The notes: a model not told the origin generated them from the letters alone. Counted from the first letter of the stretch, positions 3,104 to 31,155 are shown. The stretch is 48,923 nt of DNA from Microbacterium sp. (GCA_040392075.1 JBEBWQ010000001.1:1-48923); one strand, 5' to 3'. Program-made: numbers and translations.

Positions 3104-3255
3104 GCCAGCCCTGGCATCGGGGACATCCCGGAACCAGGAGAGCTGCCGAGAGGGGGACTGCGTCCAGGGGCCTCACAGGGTCGTCTGCACCGCCCTTGCG
3201 TCGAGGGTTGTCACGGGCGACAGGAGCGGTGTGTCGTCAGCGGCTCGTCATCGAT

Positions 3256-3306
3256 GGCATCACTGACAATCACCCCGGGGTGGTGAGATGTCACTGTGAC
3301 GATGCC
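3256..3306. terminator. Imperfect long hairpin between convergent genes
   Basis: GGCATC..TGACA.TCACC / GGTGA..TGTCA..GATGCC inverted arms. Confidence 0.4.
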
Positions 3307-3341
3307 CCGCACCGCGTCGATCAGCCTGCCTGCCGTGGTGA

Positions 3342-4364
3342 TCATGGCGCCGCAGAAGGGTCGGCCGGGTGCAGCCATGCGGTCGGAATCGGCAGCACCG
3401 GTGCCGTCCCCGCCGGCCCAGCGCTACGAGAGGCGATCTGCACGCGCACCGAGTGCTCGGACGGATCGATGACCTCGATCGGCAAGTCGTGTTCGTCAGC
3501 AAGTCGGACGATTTCCCCTGCAGGCATGGCCGCGAGCACCGTCTCGAGCCGATCGTGGATCTCACCGGAGCGCCTTCGTCGGTCCAGATATCTTCCGTGA
3601 CGATCGCTCCCGGCCCAGTCCTTCCACCCGAGCGCGTCGCACATTCGCTCCCACATCGCGTCTTCCAGCAGTGCGACGACCACCCGTCGCCCGTCGCTCG
3701 TCGCGAAAGTGCCGTAGCTGGGCTCGCGGTGTGTGGCGGCTTCCGGCTTGATGCGTGACCAGGACTGCGCTGCATCGAGCATCGCCAGATCCAGATAGCC
3801 TCCGTCGCCTGCGTGCCATGCGGCGACTGCGAGGAGGGCCGCTGTCGACCCGGCTGCTAGGTCGACCCAGGGGACCCCGATGCGGTCGATCGTGATGTCG
3901 TCCGGGATCGCGCCGACCATCGCCTGCAGGCTGAGGTCATGAGTAGGCCGAGACGCGAGCGGCCCCGTCTGGCCGAATCCCGAGATCGAGCAGTAGACGA
4001 TGGCCGGATTGATGGCCTTGATCGTCTCGTAGTCGCAGCCGAGTCGTGCTATCACTCCGGGGCGGAAGCCTTCGACGAAGACATCCGCATCGGCGGCGAG
4101 CCTCAACAGCGCAGCGCGATCGGTGTCATCCTTCAGATCGAGCGTGATCGCCCGTTTCCATCGATTCACCGTGCGGAACATCTCTGGATCGAGCATGCGC
4201 GCGGCGTCCCCCGTGGGCGGTTCCACCTTGATCACATCAGCTCCCAACGCCGCGAGCAACGCCGTCGCGTAGGGGCCGGGCAGTTGCTGGCTGACGTCGA
4301 GCACGCGCATGTGCGCGAGCGATCCCTGACCGGTCGGCGAGCGCCAGGCGATGGGGTCGTTCAT
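3342..4364 (-). CDS. Family III (CaiB/BaiF) CoA transferase
   Basis: RVLDVSQQLPGP, GADVIKVEPP, NRWKR, EGFRPG and ISGFGQTGP motifs; catalytic Asp in WVDLAAG; ATG overlaps the cyclase stop. Confidence 0.9.
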   Translation of the reverse strand: MNDPIAWRSPTGQGSLAHMRVLDVSQQLPGPYATALLAALGADVIKVEPPTGDAARMLDPEMFRTVNRWKRAITLDLKDDTDRAALLRLAADADVFVEGFRPGVIARLGCDYETIKAINPAIVYCSISGFGQTGPLASRPTHDLSLQAMVGAIPDDITIDRIGVPWVDLAAGSTAALLAVAAWHAGDGGYLDLAMLDAAQSWSRIKPEAATHREPSYGTFATSDGRRVVVALLEDAMWERMCDALGWKDWAGSDRHGRYLDRRRRSGEIHDRLETVLAAMPAGEIVRLADEHDLPIEVIDPSEHSVRVQIASRSAGPAGTAPVLPIPTAWLHPADPSAAP

Positions 4365-5230
4365 AACACAGCGAGCGGGGTCAGCTGCGCCGCGGTGGAA
4401 CCGGTGAATCCGACCGGCGCGGCGACAAAGCAGAATGATGTGACCGTGCGGCCGACAAGCCCCCTCAGGTCCATGTTCTCGATCAGCGGGATGCCCTGCT
4501 GGTGGATCAGCGCGAGATGGACGGGGAACCGTGTGCCGCTGGTCGACGGTTGCACTTCGATGGCATAGTTGTCCGCGCCGACGAGGGCGACGTCTGCGGT
4601 CGCTAGCCATTCCGCGGCCGATTCGTCCAGACCGGGCTCGTTGTCGAAGTACTCGGCGTGCTCGGCCAGATGCGACTCCCACCAGCCGGTGCGGATGATG
4701 ACGGCATCGCCGGCCTCCGGGGAGAGGCCTGCAGCGCTATATCCGTGTGCGAGGTCATCAGCGCTGATCCGGGTCGAGGCGCGCAACGGAGCGCCGTAGG
4801 CGGACACGAGGTCGATGAGGACGCCGCGAGTCATCACGCTGCGGAGAGTCTCGGCGCCGAGTCGAGTCGCGCCCGTCGAGCGCAACGTCGAGGCCGCGTG
4901 GCCGTTGTAGAGATCGTTGCCCGTCCAGACGTGCGAAAGAGCATCCATGTGGGTGCCACTGTGCGTCGAGATCGCGACAGTGTCCTCAGCGAATTTGAAC
5001 CCTCCGACGGCCCGCGCGCCCAGTGCGTAGTCACCCGCATCACGGTCCATGAATCGTGAGCCGCGCCGCCGGTGGGGCGGCACCGCACCGGCGGCGCCGG
5101 ACGGCTGGGCGAGGGGAACGACCACCCCCTCCCGCACGAGCCCGGCCGCGCGGCGCACCTGGTCGGGGCCGACCGTGTTCAACGCGCCGAACTCGTCTCG
5201 TTCCCCCCAGCGTCCCCAGTTGTCGTTCAT
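4361..5230 (-). CDS. Cyclase-family metal-dependent hydrolase (kynurenine formamidase/isatin hydrolase-like)
   Basis: NWGRWG N-terminus, HSGTHMDA (HxGTHxD), IIRTGW, GADN and IEN motifs. Confidence 0.88.
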   Translation of the reverse strand: MNDNWGRWGERDEFGALNTVGPDQVRRAAGLVREGVVVPLAQPSGAAGAVPPHRRRGSRFMDRDAGDYALGARAVGGFKFAEDTVAISTHSGTHMDALSHVWTGNDLYNGHAASTLRSTGATRLGAETLRSVMTRGVLIDLVSAYGAPLRASTRISADDLAHGYSAAGLSPEAGDAVIIRTGWWESHLAEHAEYFDNEPGLDESAAEWLATADVALVGADNYAIEVQPSTSGTRFPVHLALIHQQGIPLIENMDLRGLVGRTVTSFCFVAAPVGFTGSTAAQLTPLAVL

Positions 5231-6297: not shown

Positions 6298-6305
6298 CGA
6301 TATCG

Positions 6306-6779
6306 TCAGGACGTCGGTTCGAACCAGTAGTCGGCGGCGGTACCCGTAGGATGCTCCGCGAAAGACACGGTGACCCGGGTGCCGATTTTCACCGCCTCGA
6401 CCGCAGCGGCCTGATCCTCGAGCGCGACCCCGCGGACATAGCCGACGAGCGCGGTGTCCGCGCCGTCGAGCAGCACATAGGCCAGCGCATACGGCGGGTC
6501 GGGGAGTCCCTTGAACGGTTCGTACACGACCGTGGACATCTCGATCACACCCTGGGTGCCGACCTCGACCCAATCCACGACCCTCGTATGCGTGCGGTCG
6601 TCATAAGACCGCGCGGGCACGAGCACCCGGCCGTCCTCGGTCTTCGTTCCCCAGATGCGTCCTTCCGCGATGCCTCGCAGGAATCGCGACGTCGTCTCGC
6701 CGAGGGCGTGCCGGTACTGGAGATCCCAGGTCTGTTCGTAGAACAGGGGGACGTTCGGGGCTGTGGTCTGGTCGGTCAC
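6306..6779 (-). CDS. DUF35-type OB-fold protein (thiolase-fold partner)
   Basis: SRFLRGIAEGRIWG, PPYALAYVLLDGADT and GTRVTV; directly downstream of the thiolase-like genes; Zn-ribbon cysteines absent. Confidence 0.82.
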   Translation of the reverse strand: MTDQTTAPNVPLFYEQTWDLQYRHALGETTSRFLRGIAEGRIWGTKTEDGRVLVPARSYDDRTHTRVVDWVEVGTQGVIEMSTVVYEPFKGLPDPPYALAYVLLDGADTALVGYVRGVALEDQAAAVEAVKIGTRVTVSFAEHPTGTAADYWFEPTS

Positions 6780-6781: not shown

Positions 6782-7972
6782 CTAGATCTCCTCAAGGTCG
6801 GTGCTCAGCACCATGGTGGAATAGAACTGGTGGTCTCCGCCGATCGCACTGGCCACAGCGACGCGCGCGCCCGGCACCTGGGTCGCGCCGGCACGACCCA
6901 GGACCTGGTTGGCTGCCTCGCCGACGCGGATCGTTCCGGTGACGGCGATCGGGTTCGTGCACTGGGTGCCGCCGGAGGGATTCACAATGGTCCCCGGTGC
7001 GCCGAGAGTGAAACGTCCCTCCTCCAGCGCGTGGGCGGCTTCACCGTACGGCACGAGACCGGCTGCTTCGACGACGTGAAGCTCCACACTGGAGAAGGGC
7101 GCGTAGAGCTCAGCGACATCGATCTGCACGTCCGGCTCGGTGATGCCGGCCTGAGCGTAGGCGGTGCGGAACGCCTTCGCCAGCGCGTCGGCGTCGGCGT
7201 GGTCCCCCGACGCCTTCGCCCCCACGCGATCGCCCATCCAGAAGGTCTCACTGTTCTGTCCCAATCCGCGTATCCAGGCCGGGTGGAGGCCTCGTTCGCT
7301 GGCGAAGCGGTCAGAGACCAGGACAAGGCCGGCGGCGCCAGTGGACGCGGGACATGCGTCGCCGAGTTTGATCGGCCACGCGAGGGTTCTGCTGTTCAGC
7401 ACTTCGTCGATCGTGATCGTCGTCCGCAGATGCGCGTGGGGATTCAGGCTTGCGTGATAGCGGTTTTTGACCGATACCCGCGCCATATCGAGCTCGGTGC
7501 CGCTGTACTTCCACATGTACCGCTGAGCGGAAAGCGCGAGCATTGTGATCGTGTTCAGCGGCACCGTCCGCTCGTAGCCGACATCCCACATCTTGTTCAG
7601 GACGGACTGCGCCGAACCGGACTCGGAGACCCGGTCCGCGCCGGCGACAAGGACCGCGTCGAATCGTCCCGATGCGATGTGCGTCCAGGCGGCCAGCACC
7701 GCGCTCATGCCGGTCGCGCCGCCGTTGTTGACGCGCATGAACGGCTTTCCGGCCGCACCGAGCGCGTCGATCACCCAGCGTTCACCGTTGTTGACGCCGA
7801 TGAGGGCATCCGGCGCGAGCGGGTAGACGACGGCGTCGATGTCCTCGATGCCGATCCCGGCATCTGCGAGCGTCAGGTCGACGCCTTCCTTCACCAGTTC
7901 CGGAAAGGTGACATCCGTGCGCTTCGTGGTGAAGTACGACTGTCCGAAACCTGCTACTCCGACGTTGATCAC
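6782..7972 (-). CDS. SCP-x-type thiolase-fold protein, Ltp3-like (probable aldolase subunit)
   Basis: APD, GAAGKPFMRV, NPHAH, DVAELYAPF and NPSGG motifs; no Cys at the nucleophile position (NNGGATG); GTGA overlap. Confidence 0.8.
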   Translation of the reverse strand: MINVGVAGFGQSYFTTKRTDVTFPELVKEGVDLTLADAGIGIEDIDAVVYPLAPDALIGVNNGERWVIDALGAAGKPFMRVNNGGATGMSAVLAAWTHIASGRFDAVLVAGADRVSESGSAQSVLNKMWDVGYERTVPLNTITMLALSAQRYMWKYSGTELDMARVSVKNRYHASLNPHAHLRTTITIDEVLNSRTLAWPIKLGDACPASTGAAGLVLVSDRFASERGLHPAWIRGLGQNSETFWMGDRVGAKASGDHADADALAKAFRTAYAQAGITEPDVQIDVAELYAPFSSVELHVVEAAGLVPYGEAAHALEEGRFTLGAPGTIVNPSGGTQCTNPIAVTGTIRVGEAANQVLGRAGATQVPGARVAVASAIGGDHQFYSTMVLSTDLEEI

Positions 7973-8967
7973 TGGTCGCCCCCCTTGTGAGTGCTGAAGA
8001 CCATGGCTGTCGCGCCCTGGCACCCGAAACCGTGGTAGCCGATGCCGGCCGTGTTGACCCGTTCAGCTCCCCGCGCGGCGGTCGCCGCACGGATCGCCTC
8101 CGCGAACCGTCCCAGTCCCGCGACGTGCGGGGACGTCGGGCCAGCGGCAAGCGCTCCTGAGGCGTTCACCGACTCCCGGTCGATTCCCAGCAGGCGGGCG
8201 GTCTCAGAGACCACGTGTTCGCTGTCTGCGGCCACTTCGGTCCAGGACCATGTCTCTGGAGCGGCCTCGGGAGTGCGATGCGTGATCTGGTCGATGGCGT
8301 GGGTCAGACTCTCCAGCTGGCCGATGTCACGTCCCCCGAGCTCGTAGCTGGAGGTCGACCACCCGCTGTCCAGGATCCACGCCAGATCTTTTTCCGGAGG
8401 CGTCGCGCTCTCTGTCGCGATCACGACGGCATGGACCGAGTCGCCGCGCTGCGGCAGATCGTCTCGCTCCAGCGGGTAGGCGACGGTCGTGTCGGCCGCA
8501 GCCTTGCCGTCTCTGTGAGCCCACTTCGAGGCCTGCAGTGCCGCCGCGATGGTGTGGTTCATTCCTATCGTCCGGAGCAGATAGGGTTCCGCTGCCATCA
8601 ACTCGGCCCGGTCCGGCTCCACGGATTCGCTCGGCTTCGCCCAGCCGACGACGAGGATCCGCTCGCCCTGGCCGGCGAGCAGCCGCAGATATGCGTAGCT
8701 CAGAGCCTGGTCCGCCGACGAGGCGATCATGGTGGTGTCTTGATCGACTCCTCCCGCCGGACCGGTGCTGGGCATGATGGAGATGACTCGACCGTCGATC
8801 TCGTCGTTCCCGCTCACCACGACCCCGTCGAGATCCTGAGCTGTCAATCCGGCGGCTTCCAGAGCGCGAGTCGCAGTGTCGAAGATCATCTCCTCCAGAC
8901 TGCGACGCTCCTCTCGCTTTACCACCGTGCTCTCCACAGCGAGCACGGCAACGTTTATTTCAGACAA
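7969..8967 (-). CDS. Divergent thiolase-fold protein, Ltp4-like
   Basis: SGNDEIDGRVIS, ALSYAYLRLLAG, VVGWAKPS and VNASGAL; TTG start after an AAAGGAAG RBS. Confidence 0.68.
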   Translation of the reverse strand: MSEINVAVLAVESTVVKREERRSLEEMIFDTATRALEAAGLTAQDLDGVVVSGNDEIDGRVISIMPSTGPAGGVDQDTTMIASSADQALSYAYLRLLAGQGERILVVGWAKPSESVEPDRAELMAAEPYLLRTIGMNHTIAAALQASKWAHRDGKAAADTTVAYPLERDDLPQRGDSVHAVVIATESATPPEKDLAWILDSGWSTSSYELGGRDIGQLESLTHAIDQITHRTPEAAPETWSWTEVAADSEHVVSETARLLGIDRESVNASGALAAGPTSPHVAGLGRFAEAIRAATAARGAERVNTAGIGYHGFGCQGATAMVFSTHKGGDQ

Positions 8968-9009
8968 GCGTCTTCCTTTCTCCACGGCCACCGGGGTCGG
9001 TGCCGGACG

Positions 9010-10212: not shown

Positions 10213-10836
10213 ATGTCGAGCAGCCCCCTTGAGCCCGAACGTCTCCCCTGGCTGAAATGGATCGATCGTCTCAGTCTTTTCCTTGCTGTTCTGGGGGGGA
10301 TCGCCACCGTCTCGCTCATGCTGAACGTCGTGGCCGATGTCATCGGGCGCTTCGTCTTCGGGCGGTCGCTTCCCGGCACCCTCGACCTCACACAGTTCGC
10401 ATGGATGCCGACGCTGGTGTCGCTCGGCCTCGGATACGCCCTGGTGAAGGGGGAGCACATTCGAGTGAGTCTGCTTACGGGGCCCACCGGTCCGCTTACG
10501 CAGCGCATCATCGAGATCGTTTCCATGGTGTTCACGCTCGGCACCGTCGCGCTCTTCGCGTGGTTCGGCGCAGAGAACGCGCAGCGGACGATGAACGTCG
10601 GCGAGAAGGCCGTGGGGACGGATTGGCTGGAAGTCTGGCCGTTCCGATGGGTGGTGGTGATCGGGTTGCTCGGGCTGATGCTCCAGGCCCTCGCGACGCT
10701 TCTCCGCGCGATCACGATGAAAGAATTCCACCCCCTCGATGAGGACGAGGTTGCGATCGCCCTCGAGGCGGAGGAGACCGTCTTCGAGGAACTGGCGGAT
10801 GAAAAGGCTGTGGCCGGGAAGGTGATGAACCGATGA
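10213..10836 (+). CDS. dctQ: TRAP transporter small permease
   Basis: Four TM segments, DVIGRF and GEHIRV motifs; coupled to the large permease. Confidence 0.9.
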   Translation: MSSSPLEPERLPWLKWIDRLSLFLAVLGGIATVSLMLNVVADVIGRFVFGRSLPGTLDLTQFAWMPTLVSLGLGYALVKGEHIRVSLLTGPTGPLTQRIIEIVSMVFTLGTVALFAWFGAENAQRTMNVGEKAVGTDWLEVWPFRWVVVIGLLGLMLQALATLLRAITMKEFHPLDEDEVAIALEAEETVFEELADEKAVAGKVMNR

Positions 10837-18471: not shown

Positions 18472-18489
18472 GTATACTTGTCATACAAG
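18472..18489 (+). promoter_or_regulatory. -10 box TATACT overlapping a GntR-type palindrome CTTGT-CAT-ACAAG
   Basis: Perfect 5-bp arms at 18477-18489; related sites at 26616-26633 and 26741-26758. Confidence 0.7.
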
Positions 18490-18536
18490 CATTCGCATTT
18501 CCACTGAAGGATCTGGTGCTCACGGAAGGAGTCCAC

Positions 18537-21292: not shown

Positions 21293-22332
21293 TCGATCCG
21301 GCGAGACGAGACGCCGAGCGGGTGCATACCCGTTTCGAAGGCGGCAGACGTGGCGAGGAGGAGGTGTCCATGGTGACAGGATCAGCGGTGGGGGAGTACC
21401 GCACCGTACGTGTTGCGGCCGTCATTCCGCAAGCAGAGGACATCGTCTCTCTGATCTTGACTTCGGCCGACGGCAGTCCTCTCCCGGAATGGACCGGCGG
21501 CGCTCACATCGATATGCTCCTCAAGGAGGGGCTGGAACGGCAGTACTCCCTCTGCGGGAGCCCGGACGACCGTGCCCACTGGCGTATCAGCGTCCTCCGC
21601 GATCCGCACAGTCGTGGGGGCTCGGCGTGGATCCACTCCGAGATCCACGTCGGTGACCGCGTGAAGGTCCGCGGGCCTCGCAACAACTTTCCGCTGATCA
21701 GCGCGCAGGAGTATCTCTTCATCGCCGGAGGGATCGGGATCACCCCCTTTCTGCCCATGATCTCGGCCCTCGAATCTGCCGGTCAGAGCTGGCGTCTTGT
21801 CTATGGCGGCCGGCGGATCAGCTCGATGGCATTCGTCGACGAGCTCTCGGCGTACGGGGACAAAGTCCTTCTCTGGCCGCAGGATGGACGCGGCCTCATC
21901 GACCTCGAGTCGCTCCTTGCGAGCCCCAGACGCGACGTGGCCCTCTACGCGTGCGGCCCCGAGGCTCTCCTCGGAGCGGTGGAGGAGCGATCTGCGCACT
22001 GGCCCTCGGACGCGCTTCATCTTGAGCGCTTCCGACCGCGGGCCGGAGCCCTCGAGGGGGTGAACAGCTCCTTCGAAGTGGTCCTTGACACGTCTGGCCT
22101 GTCCATAACGGTCGAGCCGACCCAGACCATCGTCGATGCCGTGCTCGAGGCGGGTGTGCACGTGCCCACGTCCTGCCGCGAAGGCACGTGCGGGACCTGC
22201 GAGACGTTCGTCCTCGAGGGCATCCCCGACCATCGCGACTCGTACCTCACGCCGCAGGAGCGCGAGACCAATGAGGTGATGATGGTCTGCTGTTCGCGCG
22301 CCAAGACCGCTCGGCTCGTCCTGGACCTCTGA
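21289..22332 (+). CDS. PDR/VanB-family flavin/[2Fe-2S] reductase
   Basis: RQYSL, SRGGS, GGIGITP, CGP and CREGTCGTC...CCSR motifs; start could be ATG 21370. Confidence 0.93.
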   Translation: MIDPARRDAERVHTRFEGGRRGEEEVSMVTGSAVGEYRTVRVAAVIPQAEDIVSLILTSADGSPLPEWTGGAHIDMLLKEGLERQYSLCGSPDDRAHWRISVLRDPHSRGGSAWIHSEIHVGDRVKVRGPRNNFPLISAQEYLFIAGGIGITPFLPMISALESAGQSWRLVYGGRRISSMAFVDELSAYGDKVLLWPQDGRGLIDLESLLASPRRDVALYACGPEALLGAVEERSAHWPSDALHLERFRPRAGALEGVNSSFEVVLDTSGLSITVEPTQTIVDAVLEAGVHVPTSCREGTCGTCETFVLEGIPDHRDSYLTPQERETNEVMMVCCSRAKTARLVLDL

Positions 22333-22398: not shown

Positions 22399-23853
22399 AT
22401 GTACGAACAGCGCCAATTCTTCATCGGGGGTGAATGGGTTTCCCCCCACGCGGAGGCGATGATCTCCGTGCTCGATCCAGCGACGGAAGAGCTCTCCGGA
22501 CGTTTCATCGATGGAACCGAGGCCGACATGGACCGCGCAGTGGCAGCGGCCCGGCAGGCGTTTGACAGCGGCCCGTGGCCGAAGATGTCCCACGTGGAAC
22601 GCGCGGAGGTTCTGGCGGCCGCCGCAAAGCGGTTGCGCGCCCACGGGGAGGAAATGGCATTCACGCTGACGGCCGAGATGGGCTCTCCTATTTCGCAGTC
22701 CATCCACGCTCAGATGCCGATCGCCGCTGGCTTGTTCGAGTACTATGCGGGCTTGGCCGAGGAGTTCACGTGGGAGACGCGGCGGCCCGCCCATGATGAG
22801 GCGAACCAGGGTTTTGACGTTCTCGTCCGCAAGGAGCCGGTGGGCGTGGTGGCCGCGATCGTCCCGTGGAACGGACCGCAGATCGTTGCGGGAATGAAGC
22901 TGGGCCCTGCGCTGCTGGCCGGCTGCACGGTGGTTCTCAAGCCGTCCCCTGAAGCGACTCTGAACTTCGTCAAGTTCGCTGAGGCGTTCCGGGAGGCGGG
23001 CCTTCCCCGCGGGGTGCTGAACATCGTTCCCGCCGGCCGTGAGGTCGGTGAATATCTCGTCACTCATCCCGGTGTGGACAAAGTGACGTTCACGGGAAGC
23101 ACAGCCGCAGGACGACGGATCGGCGCGTTGTGCGGTGAGCGGATCCGCCGTTGCACGCTTGAGCTGGGCGGAAAGTCGGCAGCGATACTGCTGGCCGATG
23201 CGGACCTCGACGTCGTCGTGCCGAACCTGATGGCGCCATTGATGTTCATCAGCGGCCAGGCGTGCAACGCGCAGACCCGCATCCTCGCGCCCCGTGAACG
23301 ATACGATGAGGTCGTCGATGCTCTCGTGAGCGCGGTCGATGCCACCCCGTACGGGGACCCTCGGGATGAGCAGACGTTCGTGGGGCCTCTTGCTTCCCGT
23401 GCCCAGCGCGACCGCGTGATGGGCTATATCGAGATCGGTAAGAACGAAGGCGCCAAGGTCGCCCTGGGCGGCGGCAGGCCGGCAGGATACGACAAGGGCT
23501 GGTACGTCGAGAAGACGGTTCTCCGGGATGTCGACAACTCCATGCGCGTGGCTCAGGAGGAGATCTTCGGCCCGGTCTTCGTCGTCATCCCTTACGAGGG
23601 CGTGGACGAGGGCGTCGCCATCGCCAACGATTCGCCGTATGGACTCGCCGGGTCGGTGTGGACCAGCGACGATGAGGCGGGCCTTGCTGTGGCAAAGCGT
23701 GTACGGTCCGGGCTCCTGGGCGTCAATATCTCGACCCTGGACAGCGCGGCGCCGTTCGGTGGTTTCAAGAACTCGGGTATCGGTCGCGAGCGTGGTCCCG
23801 AAGGAATAGATCCGTATCTGGAGATTCAGGGGGTCCTGGTTCCTTCTCGGTGA
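22399..23853 (+). CDS. NAD(P)-dependent aldehyde dehydrogenase
   Basis: PWN, FTGST, LELGGKS, catalytic Cys in GQAC, EEIFGP and PFGGFKNSG. Confidence 0.95.
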   Translation: MYEQRQFFIGGEWVSPHAEAMISVLDPATEELSGRFIDGTEADMDRAVAAARQAFDSGPWPKMSHVERAEVLAAAAKRLRAHGEEMAFTLTAEMGSPISQSIHAQMPIAAGLFEYYAGLAEEFTWETRRPAHDEANQGFDVLVRKEPVGVVAAIVPWNGPQIVAGMKLGPALLAGCTVVLKPSPEATLNFVKFAEAFREAGLPRGVLNIVPAGREVGEYLVTHPGVDKVTFTGSTAAGRRIGALCGERIRRCTLELGGKSAAILLADADLDVVVPNLMAPLMFISGQACNAQTRILAPRERYDEVVDALVSAVDATPYGDPRDEQTFVGPLASRAQRDRVMGYIEIGKNEGAKVALGGGRPAGYDKGWYVEKTVLRDVDNSMRVAQEEIFGPVFVVIPYEGVDEGVAIANDSPYGLAGSVWTSDDEAGLAVAKRVRSGLLGVNISTLDSAAPFGGFKNSGIGRERGPEGIDPYLEIQGVLVPSR

Positions 23854-24037: not shown

Positions 24038-24979
24038 GTGCCTGACTATCGAAGCGCCAGCATCCGCGACGAATACCGGTTCCCCATCGAGGAGCTGGCC
24101 GTGCGCCGGTTCGCGGAAGCAGCGTGGGATGACAGCCCGCGGTTCTGTCTCTCGGGCGGCAGCGCTGCGGGGGATGTGCCGCTGATGTTCGGATGCCTTG
24201 GCGCAACCCTGACCGGACGGGTGCACCCGCTGGAGAGCGTCGGCTTCGATGTCGCGCGCTCATTCCACGGCGAGGAGACGATACTGCTGTACTCCCCGCT
24301 GCGCACCGGGACCACGCTTCTCGTGCGAGATGCGACGCTCCGTCTTCCGGATCTCGCCGGGAGGCGCGGCGGTGCAATGCATCGCACCAGGCGGCGCAGC
24401 CTGCTGGTGGACGAGGCCGGCGATGTCGTCGGGGTGGTGACACGGACCATGTTGGAGACGGCCAATCCGCTGATCGGCTCGGCACCGACCGAAGATGCAT
24501 CCCTCTTCGACGACGGGTTGAGGGTTCGCGCAGACCCTGTCGATGCGCAACCGACTCCTCTCCGTGCTGTTCGCAGCGGTCAGACTCTTCCGTTTGGGGA
24601 GTTCGGCCCCCTGACCCGCGCGGATTTCGTCCGCTACAGTGCCGCCAGCGGCGACCTCACGTCGATCCACTATGATGAGAATGCGGCACGATCGCGCGGC
24701 TACCGCACGACGTTCGCGATGGGCATGCTCTCCGCCGCATTCATCGGCCATATGGTCACGGACTGGTTCGAGCTTGAGTATCCGTGCCGGCTCTCCGTCA
24801 GATTCCAGGATCAGGTCTGGCCAGGAGACACGCTGGTGATCACCGGGGATGTCGTGACGGCGGACGAGAAAAGGGTGATCGTCACCATCCGTTGCCGTTC
24901 AGGTCGGGGACCGGCAACGACCGCGGTTCTCGAACACTGGAGGCCGGGAGCGCCTGCGCCCGGCCCGGATGACTACTGA
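24038..24979 (+). CDS. Double-hotdog MaoC-family (de)hydratase
   Basis: N-terminal MaoC-N (VRRFAEA, HGEE); C-terminal YSAASGDLTSIH, AMGM and VWPGDTL. Confidence 0.82.
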   Translation: MPDYRSASIRDEYRFPIEELAVRRFAEAAWDDSPRFCLSGGSAAGDVPLMFGCLGATLTGRVHPLESVGFDVARSFHGEETILLYSPLRTGTTLLVRDATLRLPDLAGRRGGAMHRTRRRSLLVDEAGDVVGVVTRTMLETANPLIGSAPTEDASLFDDGLRVRADPVDAQPTPLRAVRSGQTLPFGEFGPLTRADFVRYSAASGDLTSIHYDENAARSRGYRTTFAMGMLSAAFIGHMVTDWFELEYPCRLSVRFQDQVWPGDTLVITGDVVTADEKRVIVTIRCRSGRGPATTAVLEHWRPGAPAPGPDDY

Positions 24980-25279: not shown

Positions 25280-26539
25280 CTATTTCCCGAGCACGTCGGC
25301 ACGGACGACCTCGAGGAGGCCGGACCAGTCGACTTCTCCGCCATCCTTGAAGGACTGCAGCAGGTCAGGTTGCTGACCTGCAGGAGGAAGCGAAAGTCCC
25401 ACTTCAGCCGTCAGAACCGTCAGCCAGTGAGCAAGAGAATCCTCGTAAGACTTCACGAAGCCCGCGGGATCCTTCACACCCGCCGGTGCATTGTCCGCCA
25501 TCGCGGCGCGAGCTGCCTCCTGGTGGCGAAGGAGCGCCGCGCTCAACTCGTCCGGCATCGGCTGGGCGATCAGCCCCTGCTCTTCGACGCCTTCGACGCT
25601 GAACCGGGTCATCGCCTCCATGACGCTCGTGACGCCGGCTTCGAAGTGGGTCAGACTGGCCTCGCGGAAGATCTGCTGGATCTCGGGGGAGAGGGAGTTC
25701 CAGACGTCGAGGTTCATCACGTTCACGTTGCCCGGGAAGGCGCTGAACGGCTCCGGGCTCACGTACTTCGCCACTTCCCACAGGCCGGCGTCGGCGAGTG
25801 CGAACGGAGGGTTCACCACGCAGTCCAGCACGCCGCGCTGCAGGCTCTCGTACATCTCCCCGAACTCGGTGAACGCCCCCGTCATGCCGAGTGATGCCAC
25901 CTCCGCTTCCCAGACGGCACCGCCGATGCGGGCGCGCATCCCCCGGGCGACCTCCGGCGAGTCGATCGGCTTATTGCAGAGAGCGTAGAAGTTCGGCGAC
26001 GAGGTCCCGGTCAGGACCTTGAGATTGTGATCTGCGAACTCGGCGGCGAGGGATTCGTCCGTCATAAAGGTCTCGAAGGCCGCGGCGTAAGCCTGGAGGT
26101 AGCCGATCGGGTAGGAGCCCTCCTGGGCGCTGCCCATAGGCAGCATCCAGTTCGCGATCGGGAGTTCTTGCGGGTGGAACGATGTCGAGACCCATCCGAT
26201 GTCGGCGATGCCCGATCCTACGGCATCGACCGTCTCGGTGCCGGGAAAAAGCGATGCCGAAAAGAACTTCTCGAACGTCACCTTGCCGCCCGTGCGCTCT
26301 TCGATCTCATCCAGGAAGGCCGCGGCGGCCTTCCCGTTCGCGTCGCCTTCGGCAACGAAGGATGCGTAGGTCAGCGTGATCGGTTCCATGTCTGCAATGG
26401 CCCCCCCGGCGCCGGGGACCCCCGTCGCCTCGGCATCCTGAGCTGCGCTGCCGCCGCTGCATGAGGCCAGCAGCAGGATCCCTGCGGCCAGGCCTGCGGT
26501 GACCTTGGCCCCTATCCCCACTCGTCGCAATGCGTTCAT
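25280..26539 (-). CDS. dctP: TRAP substrate-binding lipoprotein
   Basis: Lipobox LLLASC; EIEERTGGKV, GIADIG, GMRARI, EMYESLQRGVLD and WNSLSPEIQ. Confidence 0.88.
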   Translation of the reverse strand: MNALRRVGIGAKVTAGLAAGILLLASCSGGSAAQDAEATGVPGAGGAIADMEPITLTYASFVAEGDANGKAAAAFLDEIEERTGGKVTFEKFFSASLFPGTETVDAVGSGIADIGWVSTSFHPQELPIANWMLPMGSAQEGSYPIGYLQAYAAAFETFMTDESLAAEFADHNLKVLTGTSSPNFYALCNKPIDSPEVARGMRARIGGAVWEAEVASLGMTGAFTEFGEMYESLQRGVLDCVVNPPFALADAGLWEVAKYVSPEPFSAFPGNVNVMNLDVWNSLSPEIQQIFREASLTHFEAGVTSVMEAMTRFSVEGVEEQGLIAQPMPDELSAALLRHQEAARAAMADNAPAGVKDPAGFVKSYEDSLAHWLTVLTAEVGLSLPPAGQQPDLLQSFKDGGEVDWSGLLEVVRADVLGK

Positions 26540-26740: not shown

Positions 26741-26758
26741 GTATGCTTGTCTAGCAAG
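26741..26758 (+). promoter_or_regulatory. Candidate promoter/operator GTATGCTTGTCTAGCAAG
   Basis: TATGCT -10 plus CTTG-N5-CAAG dyad about 40 bp before the start codon. Confidence 0.65.
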
Positions 26759-26798
26759 TACGCAGGTTGTAGGCGTGCACATGAAGGAGTGTGAGTAA

Positions 26799-29405
26799 AT
26801 GGCCGTCGCGTCTGATCGGGGTGGAGCAGGTAGTTCGTCGGGATCGTTCCTCGCGGGGGTTCGGGTTCTCGAGGTCGCTGACGAACTGGGGGAGTACTGC
26901 GGGAAGGTACTGGCGGGCCTGGGCGCCGATGTGGTCAAGGTGGAACCGGTGGGGGGCGAGGTGACGCGATCCTACGGCCCGTTCCTGGGCGACGAACCTG
27001 GACCCGATCGCAGCCTGTACTTCTGGCACTACAACTTCGGCAAGCGCGCGATGGTGCTGAACCTCGAGTCCCCGGAGGGCCAGGAACGCTTCCGATCTCT
27101 CGCGAAAGTGGCCGACATCGTGATCGACACGCGACCGCGAGGCTGGATGGAAGAGCGCGGACTGGGCAGCGAAGCGTTGCGCGCCATCAATCCCGCGTTG
27201 ATCTACTCGAGGATCTCCCCGTTCGGCGACGAGGGACCCTGGAAGGACTATTCCGGCAGTGACCTGGTGCATCTGGCGCTGGGCGGCGTCATGATGAACT
27301 GCGGATACGACCCCGATCCCGAGGGTCACTATGAGACCCCCCCTATCGCTCCGCAGATGTGGCAGGCCTACCAGATTGCGGGCGAGATGGCCGCGATGTC
27401 CACGCTGGCTGCTCTGATCTACCGGCTGCGCTCGGCGACCGGACAGCTGGTCTCGACGAATGTGCACGAAGCCGTGGCCAAGAACACCGAGACGGACTTG
27501 CCTGACTGGATCTATCTCCGCCAGACCCACCATCGTCTGACGTGTCGTCACTCCACGCCGCAAGCGAGGAGTCATGGGATCGTCCGGACGAAGGATGGCC
27601 GCTGGATACTTCCGTACACGACATATCTCAAGGGGTTTCCGGACGCGATCCCGGGTTCCGTGCGCCTCCTGAAGAAGTACGGCATGCAGGCTGATCTCGA
27701 GGATCCGAAGTATTCGGATCCCGAGTTCCGTGCCCGCATCGAGGTCCGCGACCATTTCGGCGAGGTCCTGGAACGCCTTATCCGTTCGCTGACATCCGAT
27801 CGGAACCTGTGGATGGAGGCGCAAGAGGAAGGATTGCCGTGGGCGCCCGTGCGGCGCCCGGAGGAGAACGTCACCGATGAGCATTGGCAGGCGCGTGAGA
27901 CGTTCTTCGACGTCGATCACCCCGAGCTCGGCCGCTCATTCACCTACATCGGCGCTCGGTGGTACGCCCCGGGACTGCCCTGGCGGAACGGGCCGCGACC
28001 GCCTCTTCTGGATGAGCACACCGAAGTGATTCTGGAGGAGTGGACCGAGCGATCCGAAGCGCTGCGGGCATTGCCGGCGGACCCGGTCGATCCTGCCGAC
28101 GAAGTTCTCAGCGTTCACGGCAAGCCCTTTGCTCTGGCGGGAGTGCGAATGGTCGATCTGTCCTGGCAGCTCGCCAGCGCCGGCGCCGGCCGATTCCTCG
28201 CCGCCCTGGGGGCCGAGGTCATCAAGGTGGAGCACGAGAGCCGCTGGGACGGCATGCGATTCGGTCTGGGCATCTATCCCGACGGCGGAAGGGCCGTCCG
28301 AGACGCGGCCGAGGGACCCCTGCCGACGCCGACGTGGGAAAGCCCGAACCGTTCGGGCTCCTTCATGGAGATCAATGCGGGAAAACTGGGGATCTCGCTG
28401 AATCTGAAGTCCGAGCAGGGCAAGCACGTCCTCACCGACCTGATCAGGAGCGCGGACGTGGTGGCTGAAGGGTTCTCTCCGGGCACGATGGAGCGGATGG
28501 GCTTCGGCTATGACCGGCTTCGCGAGATGAATCCCGGCATCATCTATGTCCAGCAGTCCGGGATGGGGCAGCACGGGACCTATGGGAACACGAAGAGTTT
28601 CGGCCCGACGGCTCAAGCTTTGACGGGATTGAGCGACATGTCCGGACTGCCTGACCCGTGGCAGCCGGCCGGGATCGGTTACTCGTACTTGGATTGGTTC
28701 GGCGCGTACAACATGGCCAACGCCACGCTTGCAGCCCTGTACCGGCGTCGATCCACCGGTCGCGGCTGTTGGATCGATTCCTCGCAGGCCGAGACGGGCA
28801 TCTACCTGACGGGCACCGCGGTCCTGGACCACAGCGCCAATGGTCGCACCTGGAGCCGCTATGGCAACCGGTCCCCGTACAAGGCCGCCGCTCCGCACGG
28901 GGCCTACCGCGTCGCGGGCGATGACCGGTGGATCGCGATCGCGGCCTTCACCGAAGAGCAGTGGAATGCGCTCGCCGAGATCCTGGGCGATGTCGCGTGG
29001 GCATCTGACGAGCGCTTCGCCACTCTAAAGTCACGTCTGCAGAACCAGGATGCCCTGGACGAGCTCATCTCGTCGGCCACCGAGGCCTGGGACGGCGTCA
29101 CCCTGATGCAGGTACTGCAACAGGCCGGCATCCCGGCAGGGGTCTGCCAGGACGCACAGGACCGCGTCGAGAATGACCCGCAACTCGCCCATGTGAAGTG
29201 GCTGGTCGAACTCGAGCAGGAGGAGATCGGCGTATGGCCCATCAAGGACTACCCGGGGGACTTGTCGATGTCGCCTGCGCACATCGGTGGTCGCTACAAC
29301 CGCTCGGGGCCGTCGTACGGCCAGGATACGGACTATGTCCTCACGACGATCCTCAAGTATCCCGAAATCCAGGTGGAAAACCTCAAGAGCGCTGGCGCGA
29401 TCTAA
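26799..29405 (+). CDS. Tandem two-domain family III CoA transferase
   Basis: Two CaiB repeats (LAGVRVLE..GADVVKVEP; LAGVRMVD..GAEVIKVE); catalytic Asp evident only in domain 2 (YLDWFGA). Confidence 0.92.
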   Translation: MAVASDRGGAGSSSGSFLAGVRVLEVADELGEYCGKVLAGLGADVVKVEPVGGEVTRSYGPFLGDEPGPDRSLYFWHYNFGKRAMVLNLESPEGQERFRSLAKVADIVIDTRPRGWMEERGLGSEALRAINPALIYSRISPFGDEGPWKDYSGSDLVHLALGGVMMNCGYDPDPEGHYETPPIAPQMWQAYQIAGEMAAMSTLAALIYRLRSATGQLVSTNVHEAVAKNTETDLPDWIYLRQTHHRLTCRHSTPQARSHGIVRTKDGRWILPYTTYLKGFPDAIPGSVRLLKKYGMQADLEDPKYSDPEFRARIEVRDHFGEVLERLIRSLTSDRNLWMEAQEEGLPWAPVRRPEENVTDEHWQARETFFDVDHPELGRSFTYIGARWYAPGLPWRNGPRPPLLDEHTEVILEEWTERSEALRALPADPVDPADEVLSVHGKPFALAGVRMVDLSWQLASAGAGRFLAALGAEVIKVEHESRWDGMRFGLGIYPDGGRAVRDAAEGPLPTPTWESPNRSGSFMEINAGKLGISLNLKSEQGKHVLTDLIRSADVVAEGFSPGTMERMGFGYDRLREMNPGIIYVQQSGMGQHGTYGNTKSFGPTAQALTGLSDMSGLPDPWQPAGIGYSYLDWFGAYNMANATLAALYRRRSTGRGCWIDSSQAETGIYLTGTAVLDHSANGRTWSRYGNRSPYKAAAPHGAYRVAGDDRWIAIAAFTEEQWNALAEILGDVAWASDERFATLKSRLQNQDALDELISSATEAWDGVTLMQVLQQAGIPAGVCQDAQDRVENDPQLAHVKWLVELEQEEIGVWPIKDYPGDLSMSPAHIGGRYNRSGPSYGQDTDYVLTTILKYPEIQVENLKSAGAI

Positions 29406-29454
29406 GGATCGATCATCGGATTCCGAACTAACCCGCCAGAGACGAGGAAGACCA

Positions 29455-29937
29455 ATGCCCTATAGCAGCGCCAGCCCCCGACCAGAATCGGGTGCCAATG
29501 CCGTTCACGGCAAACCCATCCCTGATCCCGATGACCCACTGACCGGTCCGTTCTGGGCAGGGGCGAATCAGAAGCGACTGCTGATCCAGCGGTGTGAGCA
29601 GTGTGCGAGATTCCACCACCCCCCGGTCGGCATCTGCAAAGATTGTCTGTCCACGGACCTGACGTTTGTGGAGGTGACAGGTGACGGTCATGTATACAGT
29701 TTCGCGGTGGTGAAGGATCAGCGTATTCCGGCGTTCGACGCACTCGTGCCGTATGTGGTGGCGTCCGTCGAACTCGACGATGCCCCGGGGGTCTTTCTCC
29801 AGACGAATCTGCCGGGAACGCCGATCGACGGCGTTCGTTCCGGTTTGGCGGTGACGGTCGACTTCGAGGAGATCTCACCCGGAGTCAACATCCCGCAGTT
29901 CCGTCCGAGGGAAGGGGGTGACGACGATGTCGAATGA
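29455..29937 (+). CDS. Zn-ribbon/OB-fold (DUF35) protein
   Basis: PFW, QRCEQC...PP...CKDC, GHVYSF and PYVVASVEL. Confidence 0.9.
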   Translation: MPYSSASPRPESGANAVHGKPIPDPDDPLTGPFWAGANQKRLLIQRCEQCARFHHPPVGICKDCLSTDLTFVEVTGDGHVYSFAVVKDQRIPAFDALVPYVVASVELDDAPGVFLQTNLPGTPIDGVRSGLAVTVDFEEISPGVNIPQFRPREGGDDDVE

Positions 29938-31093
29938 GGGCGCTCGCGTGGCCGTCGTGGGCTTCGGCCATTCCAAGGTCTATCGCCGAGCGGAGGAGCC
30001 CCTCGGGAAGCTGGCGGTGGAGGCTGCGCGTGAAGCGGTTCGGGACGCCGGGTTGGACATGTCCGACATCGACGGTATTGCGACGTCGCCCGTGCATCCC
30101 GCGGAAGGGGTCGGGGCTGTCGACGGGATACATATCGTGTCCACCGACTTCATGACCAAGGCCTTGGGGCTTGATCCGAGCTACTCGGACCAGGGGACGT
30201 TCATGCTCACGCAGGGTTTTTTCCAGGCGATGAACGCCGTCGCAGCCGGCGTTTGCAAGTACGCTCTGGTGTTTCGTGCGCTTCACAATCCGGACGGGCG
30301 ATACGGGCGGGTCAGTCCTGGCCGCGCTTATGGAACCGACCAGTGGTTCACGCCCTACGGATCGACAGGTCCGACCACCATTGCGCAGCAACTTCGTCGG
30401 TACATGGAGAAGTTCGGCGGCACCAAGGAGCAGCTCGGCACATTCGTGGTTCGCAATCGTGACCAGGGGCTGAAGAATGAGAACAGCTACTGGCGCCAAC
30501 ATCGGCCGGAGAGGCTCACGCTGGACGAGTACCTCGGCGCACGTCCGATCAGTGAACCCATGGGCATGCTGGATTGCGACATTCCGATCCAAGGCGCCGC
30601 CGCCTTCGTCATCACCTCTGCCGAGCGCGCGCGAGATCTGACCGACAGACCGGGTTATGTCTTGGCGAGTGCCGTCTCGCCGGAGTTCTTCTCGGATGTC
30701 GGGTATCCCGAGACCGTTGAGTCTCAAATCGACGTCGGGAGGCTGATGGCCGCCCACCTGTATGCGAACGGGCAGGTCGGCGCCAGGGACATCGATGTCG
30801 CCAACCTGTACGACGGCTATTCAGCGAACGTGCCGTTCTGGGCGGATGCCATGGGATTGTCGGAGGAAGGACAGGGATTGCAATGGATCGCGGACCCGAG
30901 TATTCCGCTCAATACATCGGGCGGGAATCTCGGTAACGGGCGGATGCACGGAGTGCCGCACATGATGGACGGCGCGATGCAGGTGATGGGGCGTTCCGGC
31001 GCCCGTCAGGTCGAGGGGGCGGAGCTCTCGTTGGTGTGTATCGGCGGGACCCATCACGCGGGCGTGATTCTGTTCGGCAGTCGGCCGCAGTGA
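29927..31093 (+). CDS. Thiolase-fold protein, Ltp2-like (probable aldolase)
   Basis: DIDGI, LDCD, LYDGY and LNTSGGNLG..RMHG; no nucleophilic Cys; overlaps the DUF35 gene. Confidence 0.82.
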   Translation: MSNEGARVAVVGFGHSKVYRRAEEPLGKLAVEAAREAVRDAGLDMSDIDGIATSPVHPAEGVGAVDGIHIVSTDFMTKALGLDPSYSDQGTFMLTQGFFQAMNAVAAGVCKYALVFRALHNPDGRYGRVSPGRAYGTDQWFTPYGSTGPTTIAQQLRRYMEKFGGTKEQLGTFVVRNRDQGLKNENSYWRQHRPERLTLDEYLGARPISEPMGMLDCDIPIQGAAAFVITSAERARDLTDRPGYVLASAVSPEFFSDVGYPETVESQIDVGRLMAAHLYANGQVGARDIDVANLYDGYSANVPFWADAMGLSEEGQGLQWIADPSIPLNTSGGNLGNGRMHGVPHMMDGAMQVMGRSGARQVEGAELSLVCIGGTHHAGVILFGSRPQ

Positions 31094-31155
31094 GACTGTT
31101 GCGGGGTCAGATGGTCGACGGCCCGTGATCGGATGACAACACGTGCGCACGAGAA

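What the first reader, a model, noticed from the sequence alone, without database searches (positions are those of the whole stretch)
3110..31140. Candidate new pathway: oxygenase-primed, CoA-dependent retro-aldol catabolism with no acyl-CoA dehydrogenase
Seen: TRAP uptake, a CoA ligase, CoA transferases, an amidohydrolase-fold oxygenase module, two Cys-less thiolase/DUF35 complexes, MaoC, ADH, ALDH and a 2-hydroxyacid dehydrogenase-like enzyme, but no acyl-CoA dehydrogenase or crotonase. Known: PtmU3 hydroxylates a CoA thioester ahead of ring cleavage; Ltp2-DUF35 cleaves 3-hydroxyacyl-CoA by retro-aldol to release propionyl-CoA; ibuprofen IpfABDEF pairs a ligase, an oxygenase and a thiolase/DUF35 pair. 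Inference: direct C-H hydroxylation replaces dehydrogenation, allowing C-C cleavage of a branched or cyclic acid blocked for beta-oxidation. The substrate is unknown.
Basis: partly seen in the sequence, partly recalled or inferred. Interest (0 to 1): 0.82.

Follow-up and report, generated by a model that had tools for sequence, protein, structure and literature searches.

The report
Mn/Fe hydroxylase wired to retro-aldolase
An acquired 22-gene island places a remodelled relative of the aminoisobutyrate hydroxylase and a cysteine-less thiolase operon behind one shared operator-like site, likely to break down a branched acid that ordinary beta-oxidation cannot attack by hydroxylating it and then snapping a carbon-carbon bond, possibly releasing lactate; this chemical logic is already known, but this enzyme set is not characterised.

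Summary
The gene inventory is real: 22 intact genes form a low-GC3 insertion at 3.1-31.1 kb, with no acyl-CoA dehydrogenase (ACAD) or crotonase on the contig. The oxygenase was misfiled. It is not PtmU3-like but an AibH1-H2-G-F set (H2 57% identical to AibH2, all metal ligands kept) whose catalytic subunit is specifically remodelled. A FadR-type palindrome, found only twice in the assembly, precedes both the oxygenase operon and the CoA-transferase/DUF35/thiolase operon. Seven further loci of that thiolase subfamily all lie beside an oxygenase (7 of 7) and rarely an ACAD (1 of 7), though six are close kin. The FAD/Fe-S dehydrogenase tracks lactate-releasing clusters, and 5 of 8 close oxygenase relatives have lactate genes nearby. 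Best reading (0.45): beta-hydroxylation of an alpha-tertiary, probably 2-hydroxy-2-methyl, acid, CoA transfer, retro-aldol cleavage, aldehyde oxidation, lactate oxidation. The substrate is unknown. The second aldolase module lacks the operator and looks separately acquired. The logic is in print (ibuprofen, Ambrox, platensimycin), so this is a new variant of a known kind.

The parts
3342..4364 (-). CaiB1, single-domain family III CoA-transferase (catalytic Asp motif kept)
   Evidence: PF02515; WVDLAAG
4361..5230 (-). Cyclase-family metal hydrolase (possible amide or ester hydrolase)
   Evidence: PF04199; PDB 5IBZ E 1e-32; 58% to a ligase-adjacent cyclase in L184
5227..6252 (-). Zn-dependent ADH/MDR
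   Evidence: PF08240, PF00107; CGVCGHD and GHE
6306..6779 (-). DUF35a (OB fold, no CxxC ribbon)
   Evidence: PF01796
6782..7972 (-). ThlA, Cys-less SCP2-type thiolase fold (Ltp3-like by recall), Tyr at the HDCF site
   Evidence: (best PRK08313, 291 bits, below cut-off 514)
7969..8991 (-). ThlA2, degenerate thiolase-like subunit (Ltp4-like by recall)
   Evidence: no Pfam hit; NCBIfam PRK07937 E 1e-15; tblastn to the gene before the ThlA homologue in L186 and L187
9010..9828 (-). IclR regulator heading the left operon
10213..12371 (+). TRAP DctQ + DctM
12405..15296 (-). FAD/Fe-S 2-hydroxyacid dehydrogenase, likely D-lactate dehydrogenase (Dld-II-type by recall)
   Evidence: orthologues beside MurQ and LctP; second copies beside related clusters
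15523..17220 (+). Acyl-CoA ligase
   Evidence: PF00501/PF13193; 53% to the L184 ligase
17588..18238 (+). GntR-FCD (FadR subfamily) regulator, likely repressor at the shared site
   Evidence: motif class
18474..18492 (.). Operator-like palindrome 1 (TTGT-N3-ACAA core, overlapping a TATACT -10-like hexamer), 45 bp before the H1 start
18537..19682 (+). AibH1-like structural subunit
   Evidence: E 6e-177 to AibH1
19686..20807 (+). AibH2-like catalytic dinuclear oxygenase subunit (D27, H29, H207, E261, D333, H336, D338)
20804..21292 (+). AibG-like Rieske ferredoxin
   Evidence: 59-66% to relatives
21370..22332 (+). AibF-like PDR/VanB reductase
   Evidence: 56-65% to relatives
22399..23853 (+). Aldehyde dehydrogenase (catalytic Cys and Glu motifs kept)
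24038..24979 (+). Double-hotdog MaoC-type hydratase/dehydratase (D..H motif kept)
25280..26539 (-). TRAP DctP
26743..26761 (.). Operator-like palindrome 2 (15 of 19 identical to site 1, opposite orientation), 38 bp before caiB2
26799..29405 (+). CaiB2, fused double-domain CoA-transferase (Asp motif found only in the C-domain; best PDB match benzylsuccinate CoA-transferase)
29455..29937 (+). DUF35b (Zn ribbon + OB fold)
29927..31093 (+). ThlB, Cys-less thiolase fold with family-conserved Tyr295, Arg339, His341; predicted retro-aldolase

Best explanation
The island carries an AibH1H2GF-type dinuclear oxygenase with a remodelled catalytic subunit and a CoA-transferase/DUF35/Cys-less-thiolase operon behind matching operator-like sites, and it likely degrades a branched acid with no alpha-hydrogen by beta-hydroxylation followed by predicted retro-aldol cleavage. 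Proposed steps, all inferred: (1) TRAP imports the acid, and GntR-FCD is released from both sites. (2) H1H2, fed by F and G, hydroxylates the beta C-H, replacing the ACAD + hydratase pair, which cannot act without an alpha-H; whether this happens before or after CoA attachment is open. (3) CaiB2 makes the CoA thioester. (4) ThlB-DUF35b cleaves C2-C3 with Tyr295 as base, giving an aldehyde or ketone and an acyl-CoA. (5) ALDH oxidises the aldehyde. (6) If the acid is a 2-hydroxy-2-methyl acid, the acyl-CoA is lactyl-CoA; CoA is passed back and the FAD/Fe-S dehydrogenase oxidises lactate to pyruvate. The IclR operon, ligase and MaoC would handle the other fragment or a second substrate. Odds: about 0.6 for steps 2-5 in general, about 0.45 with lactate as a fragment.
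For: Oxygenase identity: AibH2/AibH1 are the best matches by sequence and fold (TM 0.87, against 0.71 for PtmU3); the gene order H1-H2-G-F is the same as aib; all 7 cofactor-site residues are kept; gamma1 Ile and gamma4 Trp match the low-potential, Mn-capable class. Changed specificity: at columns invariant in 8 related loci the window differs at 24% in H2 (45 of 184) but 8% in H1 (14 of 186), G (5 of 62) and F (10 of 130); 3 of 4 positions mapped from SfbO ligand contacts differ; H1 K277Q corresponds to AibH1 K282, which contacts AibH2 D342. Co-regulation: site 1 finds exactly one other match at <=4 mismatches in 2.37 Mb, before caiB2; 0 of 2000 resampled intergenic sets match; the core fits the FadR TKGT-N3-ACMA consensus. 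Family context: of 7 ThlB-signature loci in 400 Mycobacteriales, DUF35 7, ALDH 6, CaiB 6, DitZ-type oxygenase 5, P450 6, either oxygenase 7, ACAD 1, crotonase 1. G818 joins ThlB (76%), DUF35b (67%), three CaiB2 (61-64%), a PDR reductase, ALDH, a DitZ-like amidohydrolase and a second dld copy, with no ACAD inside the cluster. Tyr295 aligns with the Ltp2/Sal catalytic base. Lactate: 5 of 8 close AibH-type loci have lactate genes within about 9 kb, of unrelated kinds (LutABC, Dld, FAD/Fe-S dehydrogenase, lactate permease). In G892, G882 and G818 it is the extra dld copy that lies at the cluster. dld orthologues in relatives sit beside MurQ and LctP.
Against: No second genome or contig with this exact combination was found (H2 in 400 family genomes; H1 in 300 order genomes; contig lengths of the best H2 and ThlB hits do not coincide). 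None of the 8 closest oxygenase loci showed a DUF35 hit. They use HIBADH + ALDH + crotonase + CaiB, or SDR + Cys-retaining thiolase + ligase. AibH2's pocket is described as too small for CoA-ligated substrates, and I could not measure the window's pocket. ThlB lacks the Ltp2 acid Tyr344 (Arg here) and the His/Cys of YDHF/YDCY, so aldolase activity is unproven. Six of the 7 signature loci are one orthologous group (63-82% identical) and only about 40% identical to ThlB, and 0 of 7 have dld. dld has no copy of the operator and also accompanies sugar clusters. G818's amidohydrolase fails the last residue of the oxygenase motif (DFPHPT), and G1205's ThlB locus has an ACAD pair. MaoC is left unexplained.
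Confidence: 0.45

Rival explanations
1. One reading: a bulky branched or cyclic acyl-CoA is beta-hydroxylated as in PtmU3 or Ambrox catabolism, and both thiolase-fold complexes act in one pathway, releasing propionyl-CoA.
For: The precedent exists. ThlB-signature operons carry DitZ-type oxygenases and lipid or ABC uptake. The H2 pocket has lost a loop of about 6 residues and several conserved polar residues, which might admit a larger substrate. The TRAP genes are split across both halves of the island, tying them together.
Against: H2 is 57% identical to AibH2 and about 24% to PtmU3. The left module lacks the operator, and its best relative has ACADs. prpBC next door is native. The dld gene is unexplained.
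Confidence: 0.2
2. Mosaic island: the aldolases are fed by MaoC hydration of an already unsaturated acyl-CoA or by ACADs elsewhere in the genome, and the oxygenase does a separate upstream step such as N- or O-dealkylation.
For: An intact MaoC is present. At least 11 ACAD and 10 crotonase matches lie elsewhere in the assembly. The best plasmid relatives of ligase + cyclase + IclR (L184), ThlA (L186) and CaiB2 (L185, L192) lack AibH, and all four loci have ACADs. SfbO, a family member, does N-dealkylation.
Against: The shared operator; 0 of 7 ThlB-signature loci have MaoC and 1 of 7 an ACAD.
Confidence: 0.2
3. Aib-like oxidative route: methyl hydroxylation, ADH and ALDH oxidation to a malonate, CoA transfer, then decarboxylation by ThlB (not retro-aldol) to lactyl-CoA.
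For: This is the Aib chemistry and the apparent route in 5 of 8 closest loci. ALDH lies directly behind F. A related thiolase-like protein has weak malonyl-CoA decarboxylase activity. Arg339, conserved in 119 of 120 homologues, could bind a carboxylate. CaiB2's best structure match handles a dicarboxylate.
Against: No HIBADH, crotonase or PLP decarboxylase in the island. The only ADH lies in the IclR operon without the operator. ThlB-signature operons elsewhere pair with DitZ-type oxygenases and P450s.
Confidence: 0.15

Closest known systems
AibH1H2GF 2-aminoisobutyrate monooxygenase and the aib pathway, Rhodococcus wratislaviensis C31-06 (PMC7782822, PMC10401708)
   Same: Same four-gene order; H2 57% identical to AibH2; all cofactor ligands kept; ALDH in the cluster.
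   Different: H2 pocket remodelled; no aibC (PLP decarboxylase), aibD1, aibA or amino-acid permease; instead CoA-transferases, thiolase-fold/DUF35 sets, TRAP and a 2-hydroxyacid dehydrogenase.
Hydroxylation then retro-aldol opening in (-)-Ambrox catabolism (Sphingomonas) and platensimycin biosynthesis (PtmU3) (PMC13599519 passages; PMC7782822 discussion)
   Same: Same logic: an acid with a quaternary alpha-carbon, CoA ligation, beta C-H hydroxylation, retro-aldol cleavage.
   Different: Those act on large terpenoid CoA esters; PtmU3 belongs to the diiron, high-potential class and is about 24% identical to H2. Here the oxygenase is a heteromeric, Rieske-fed, low-potential type.
Ibuprofen ipf upper pathway (PMC9195938)
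   Same: CoA ligase, oxygenase and retro-aldolase (IpfDE) with no ACAD.
   Different: Ipf uses an aromatic-ring dioxygenase and gives a catechol + propionyl-CoA.
Ltp2-ChsH2(DUF35) and Sal-Shy steroid side-chain retro-aldolases (PMC12329534); Ltp3/Ltp4 (function recalled; only the title of Wilbrink 2012 seen)
   Same: Thiolase fold without the nucleophile Cys, catalytic-base Tyr kept, DUF35 partner.
   Different: ThlB has YDGY and Arg at the second-Tyr position; ThlA has YAPF. The steroid enzymes are fed by ACAD + MaoC.
2-Hydroxyisobutyrate catabolism by B12 mutase (HcmAB/RcmAB) or TPP lyase (PMC7176365)
   Same: Same problem: a tertiary 2-hydroxy acid blocked for beta-oxidation, solved on the CoA ester.
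   Different: Neither route uses hydroxylation or yields lactate.

Membership tests
Amidohydrolase-related dinuclear oxygenases (ARO) | N-terminal D-x-H and C-terminal D-x-P-H-x-D/E motifs in a PF04909 barrel | tested here: met
   H2: D27-I-H29 and D333-Y-P-H336-W-D338 (definition)
Amidohydrolase-related dinuclear oxygenases (ARO) | Adjacent small Rieske ferredoxin and reductase | tested here: met
   20804-22332
Amidohydrolase-related dinuclear oxygenases (ARO) | O2-dependent C-H hydroxylation at a dinuclear centre | not testable with these tools
   needs an enzyme assay
Low-potential (Mn/Fe-capable) ARO class | Hydrophobic gamma1 (Val/Ile) and aromatic gamma4 | tested here: met
   I28 and W337; gamma2, 3 and 5 not checked
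AibH1H2GF (Aib hydroxylase proper) | Heteromer with a mononuclear H1 that lacks the last Asp; order H1-H2-G-F | tested here: met
   H1 ends DYPHRH; order as in aib
AibH1H2GF (Aib hydroxylase proper) | Falls in the AibH2 core group with conserved pocket residues | tested here: not met
   57% to AibH2 against 70-75% for the four core relatives compared; separate 4-row branch in a quick tree, SH-aLRT 98, with long branches; Y66N, K180Q, H225Y, H232L, N263G, F337W
aib pathway | aibC (SHMT-like), aibD1 (HIBADH), aibA and aibT in the cluster | tested here: not met
   none of these families among the 22 island genes
PtmU3/DitZ type | High-potential class (hydrophilic gamma1) and close sequence or fold similarity | tested here: not met
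   gamma1 is Ile; E 1e-17 and TM 0.71 to PtmU3
PtmU3/DitZ type | Acts on a CoA-ligated substrate | not testable with these tools
Ltp2/Sal retro-aldolases (ThlB) | No nucleophile Cys; catalytic-base Tyr; DUF35 partner | tested here: met
   Tyr295 in 119 of 120 homologues; DUF35b adjacent
Ltp2/Sal retro-aldolases (ThlB) | General acid: Tyr344 (Ltp2) or Cys of YDCY (Sal) | tested here: not met
   Arg339 and Gly297 at those positions
Ltp3/Ltp4-type pair (ThlA/ThlA2) | Scores above the curated cut-offs of PRK08313 / PRK07937 | tested here: not met
   291 < 514 and 58 < 419 bits, though both are the best hits; linking these models to Ltp3/Ltp4 is recalled
D-lactate dehydrogenase, FAD/Fe-S type | FAD_binding_4 + FAD-oxidase_C + Fer4 + CCG domains and lactate-linked context | tested here: inconclusive
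   domains met; no curated model above cut-off; context points to lactate; not compared with a characterised enzyme
FadR-subfamily operator | A/T-rich palindrome TKGT-N3-ACMA near a promoter, with a GntR-FCD gene nearby | tested here: met
   site 1 exact, site 2 one mismatch in the core; binding not testable here

The most novel reading that the evidence does not exclude
A Mn/Fe oxygenase plus a new Tyr/Arg/His retro-aldolase subfamily form a third general route for tertiary 2-hydroxy-2-methyl acids, beside the B12 mutase and the TPP lyase: beta-hydroxylation, then cleavage to lactyl-CoA plus an aldehyde. The sister AibH-type clusters in other actinobacteria reach lactate from the same class of acid by oxidation-decarboxylation or by thiolysis.
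Probability: 0.3. Interest if true: 0.75.

Novelty: new variant of a known kind. Interest (0 to 1): 0.52.

Why it matters
The papers read describe thousands of predicted AROs with very few known substrates. This island gives a testable pathway context for a diverged AibH2 relative, a biocatalyst class valued for hydroxylating unactivated C-H bonds. It also points to an uncharacterised thiolase-fold subfamily (Tyr/Arg/His, no Cys) that is tied to oxygenases rather than to ACADs. If lactate is the fragment, it adds a hydroxylation route for tertiary hydroxy acids such as 2-hydroxyisobutyrate, which arises from fuel ethers and isobutene; the passages read of PMC7176365 describe only mutase and lyase routes. 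The overall chemical logic is not new.

Tried and rejected
Among 73 such loci over 15 kb, ligase-like hits occurred in 5, ThlA-like in 1, dld-like in 1 and DUF35 in 0, so they say little about this island. No close H2 orthologue was found in 400 family genomes or 400 Mycobacteriales (only 4 candidates scored per genome). The careful tree did not finish; the quick tree is reported, and 2 fused or long rows (P0043, P0054) were left out. The AlphaFold model (pLDDT 81) served only for the fold search; pocket loops 59-70 and 211-213 are low-confidence. The sigma-70 promoter scan gave nothing above chance (1 found, 2.1 expected). A 14-mer comparison of intergenic regions missed the operator; I saw it by eye and then tested it, so the test follows a look at the data. 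The 19-mer was not found near homologous clusters, apart from one exact 11-bp core in L090. No tRNA and no boundary repeats were found. The adjacent prpBC genes were rejected as evidence for propionyl-CoA. An Aib role for the relatives was checked: no SHMT-family gene lies near the module in 5 of 5 genomes searched (G882 not searched). A ThlA orthologue was not found in 5 selected genomes (no positive control). No RNA holder was listed. Earlier-findings look-ups returned nothing. Paper searches with no useful result: 2-HIBA hydroxylation (0 papers), PtmU3 + retro-aldol (0), (irrelevant hits). The PtmU3 paper was not held. No complex prediction was run. Supplements were not read; Hibi's Supplementary Fig. 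8 (pocket) may bear on the pocket argument.

Full report
Setting. The window is the whole of contig C1 of a 60%-complete, high-GC assembly; its homologues are actinobacterial. Between a native prpB-prpC-thiolase operon and a 5'-nucleotidase gene that is now in pieces lies a 28-kb stretch of 22 open genes with GC3 0.69-0.83, against 0.92-0.99 in 9 flank genes. In G1236 the two flanks are adjacent (L215), and prpC precedes the thiolase in 8 of 9 genus loci. The stretch is therefore an insertion, and the prp genes say nothing about its products. No tRNA or boundary repeat was found.

Observation. ACAD and crotonase families match 11 and 10 places in the assembly, none on C1. Both thiolase-fold proteins lack the nucleophile Cys. 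ThlA has NNGGATG where SCP2-thiolase has NNNCSTG, and Tyr at the HDCF site. ThlB has YDGY where Ltp2 has YDHF, and Arg where Ltp2 has Tyr344. In 120 ThlB homologues Tyr295 and Arg339 occur in 119 and His341 in 115. This is a conserved, uncharacterised active site that keeps the aldolase base but not either known acid.

The oxygenase is an AibH set. The two amidohydrolases match AibH1 (E 6e-177) and AibH2 (E 3e-139), far ahead of PtmU3 (1e-20, 1e-17). The fold search agrees (TM 0.87 against 0.71), and the order H1-H2-G-F is that of the aib cluster. H2 keeps all seven cofactor-site residues and the gamma1/gamma4 residues of the Mn-capable class. AibH1H2 hydroxylates free aminoisobutyrate, an acid with no alpha-hydrogen, and its pocket is 412 cubic angstroms against 1016 for PtmU3, which takes CoA esters. 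The window's H2 is not a plain orthologue. It is 57% identical to AibH2, against 70-75% for four core relatives, and it falls in a separate four-row branch of a quick tree. At columns invariant among eight related loci it differs at 45 of 184 positions (24%), while H1, G and F differ at 8% each. The changes include three of four positions mapped from SfbO ligand contacts, loss of a loop, and the H1 Lys that contacts the AibH2 metal loop. The rest of the aib pathway is absent. I infer a new substrate.

Regulation links the oxygenase to ThlB. A 19-bp imperfect palindrome 45 bp before H1 has exactly one other match at four or fewer mismatches in the 2.37-Mb assembly, 38 bp before caiB2-DUF35b-thlB; 0 of 2000 resampled intergenic sets gave such a match (the motif was first seen by eye). 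Both copies overlap a TATRCT hexamer. The core fits the FadR-subfamily consensus TKGT-N3-ACMA, and a GntR-FCD gene lies just upstream of H1. Weaker cores occur before dctP and gntR. None was found before the IclR operon, dctQ, the ligase or dld. Binding is inferred, not shown.

Context of the ThlB subfamily. A search of 400 Mycobacteriales gave 9 places; 2 lacking the YDGF/GRxHG signature were set aside. In 20-kb windows around the other 7: DUF35 7, ALDH 6, CaiB 6, DitZ-type oxygenase 5, P450 6, either oxygenase 7, ACAD 1, crotonase 1, MaoC 0, dld 0 (55 of 82 unlabelled ORFs were scanned, with no further ACAD). Six of the seven are one orthologous group (63-82% identical) and only about 40% identical to ThlB, so they count as one or two observations. 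The closest ThlB locus reached, G818 (76%), also holds DUF35b, three CaiB2 copies, a PDR reductase, ALDH, a DitZ-like amidohydrolase that fails the last motif residue, and a second dld copy, with no ACAD inside the cluster. G1205 (44%) has a DitZ-type pair and also an ACAD pair. Close ThlB and CaiB2 homologues share three further contig lengths, which suggests co-occurrence.

Context of the oxygenase's relatives. Eight loci with H1 at 66-75% were read: six in five Pseudonocardia genomes, G1056 and plasmid NZ_CP070616.1. Five have HIBADH + ALDH + crotonase + CaiB (four by annotation, G879 by gene order and length). Five have a thiolase + ligase, four with an SDR; the four thiolases read keep the Cys (59 of 91 nearby ORFs were Pfam-scanned, the rest were BLAST-labelled or left out as apparent repeats). 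None showed a DUF35 hit; an ACAD was seen beside one (G804). No SHMT-family gene lies near the module in the five genomes searched, so these are not aib clusters. Five of eight have lactate genes within about 9 kb: LutABC, a Dld above its curated cut-off, orthologues of the window's FAD/Fe-S dehydrogenase, and lactate permeases. Eight of the nine Pseudonocardia genomes checked have that dehydrogenase; in the three with two copies, the extra one lies at these clusters. In relatives of the window its orthologues sit beside MurQ, LctP and sugar-catabolic genes. I read it as a marker of lactate as an end fragment. This supports a 2-hydroxy-2-methyl acid as the substrate class, but it also shows that the nearest oxygenases do not use aldolases.

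The rest looks separately acquired. The best plasmid relatives of ligase + cyclase + IclR (L184), of ThlA2-ThlA-DUF35a-CaiB1 (L186) and of CaiB2 (L185, L192) lack an AibH module and have ACADs nearby; L187, another ThlA relative, shows none. No second genome with the whole combination was found. The split TRAP genes are the only tie between the halves.

Mechanism and rivals. Best reading (0.45): import, beta C-H hydroxylation by H1H2GF in place of ACAD + hydratase, CoA transfer by CaiB2, retro-aldol cleavage by ThlB-DUF35b, ALDH oxidation of the aldehyde, and oxidation of lactate from lactyl-CoA. The gene identities, motifs, repeat and neighbourhood counts are shown; all chemistry is inferred. 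Rivals: a bulky CoA ester with propionyl-CoA release through both aldolases (0.2); a mosaic fed by MaoC or ACADs in trans (0.2); an Aib-like oxidation with ThlB as decarboxylase (0.15).

Comparison with what is known. CoA ligation, C-H hydroxylation next to a quaternary carbon and retro-aldol opening are proposed from metabolite structures for Ambrox catabolism, with platensimycin as the stated precedent. Ibuprofen uses ligase, dioxygenase and retro-aldolase. The logic is therefore known. The pairing of an AibH-type heteromeric oxygenase with a Tyr/Arg/His thiolase-fold protein did not appear in my searches, which cover only open-access papers.

What I saw of each paper. PMC7782822: parts 1-3 of 6 (abstract to start of methods). 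PMC13154177: parts 1-2 of 9 and passages. PMC10811679: parts 1-2 of 3 and one passage. PMC10401708, PMC7176365, PMC12329534, PMC4494728, PMC12141560, PMC9195938, PMC8913865, PMC10398937, PMC13599519: passages only. PtmU3 paper: not held. No supplements were read. The labels Ltp3/Ltp4-like and Dld-II-type are recalled.

Verdict.

Noticed in passing
L090/L091 (NZ_CP070616.1), L172-L183, L189-L190: Uncharacterised AibH-type clusters without aibC: HIBADH + ALDH + crotonase + CaiB (often with a KARI-like gene), and/or SDR + Cys-thiolase + ligase, often with lactate genes. They predict hydroxylation of 2-hydroxyisobutyrate or 2-hydroxy-2-methylbutyrate down to lactate, a route not among those in the passages read of PMC7176365.
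   Followed up: partly
L219-L222, L224, L225: A conserved operon CaiB-DUF35-ThlB-like-ALDH-DitZ-type oxygenase-SDR-P450, often with an F420-dependent reductase, in Mycobacteriales; substrate unknown.
   Followed up: partly
window 31636-33420 (-): 5'-nucleotidase gene in several frames (metallophosphoesterase and C-terminal pieces) at the island's right edge; intact-looking in G1236.
   Followed up: partly
window 1919-3103 (+): A Cys-retaining thiolase overlapping the end of prpC; the same arrangement occurs in 8 of 9 genus loci fetched, and the gene was found in 12 of 60 genus genomes.
   Followed up: yes
window 33816-35817 (+): A Gly/Ala-rich repeat protein (repeats at 34530-35055) followed by a small lipoprotein-like gene; resembles a type VII secretion substrate locus by recall, not tested.
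   Followed up: no
L174:18309-19319, L176:6756-7769, L091:24146-25159: A ketol-acid reductoisomerase gene inside the AibH-type catabolic clusters, above the ilvC cut-off where scanned (L174); role unexplained.
   Followed up: no
L196:3658-6264, L196:13549-16167, L197:591-3191 (G818): Three copies of the double-domain CoA-transferase within 20 kb; the family is large (1848 hits at E<=1e-200) and had no full-length solved structure.
   Followed up: no
window 15297-15315: A GTCTAGAC palindrome just before the dld start shares TTGTCTAG with operator site 2 on the reverse strand but does not meet the motif test.
   Followed up: partly
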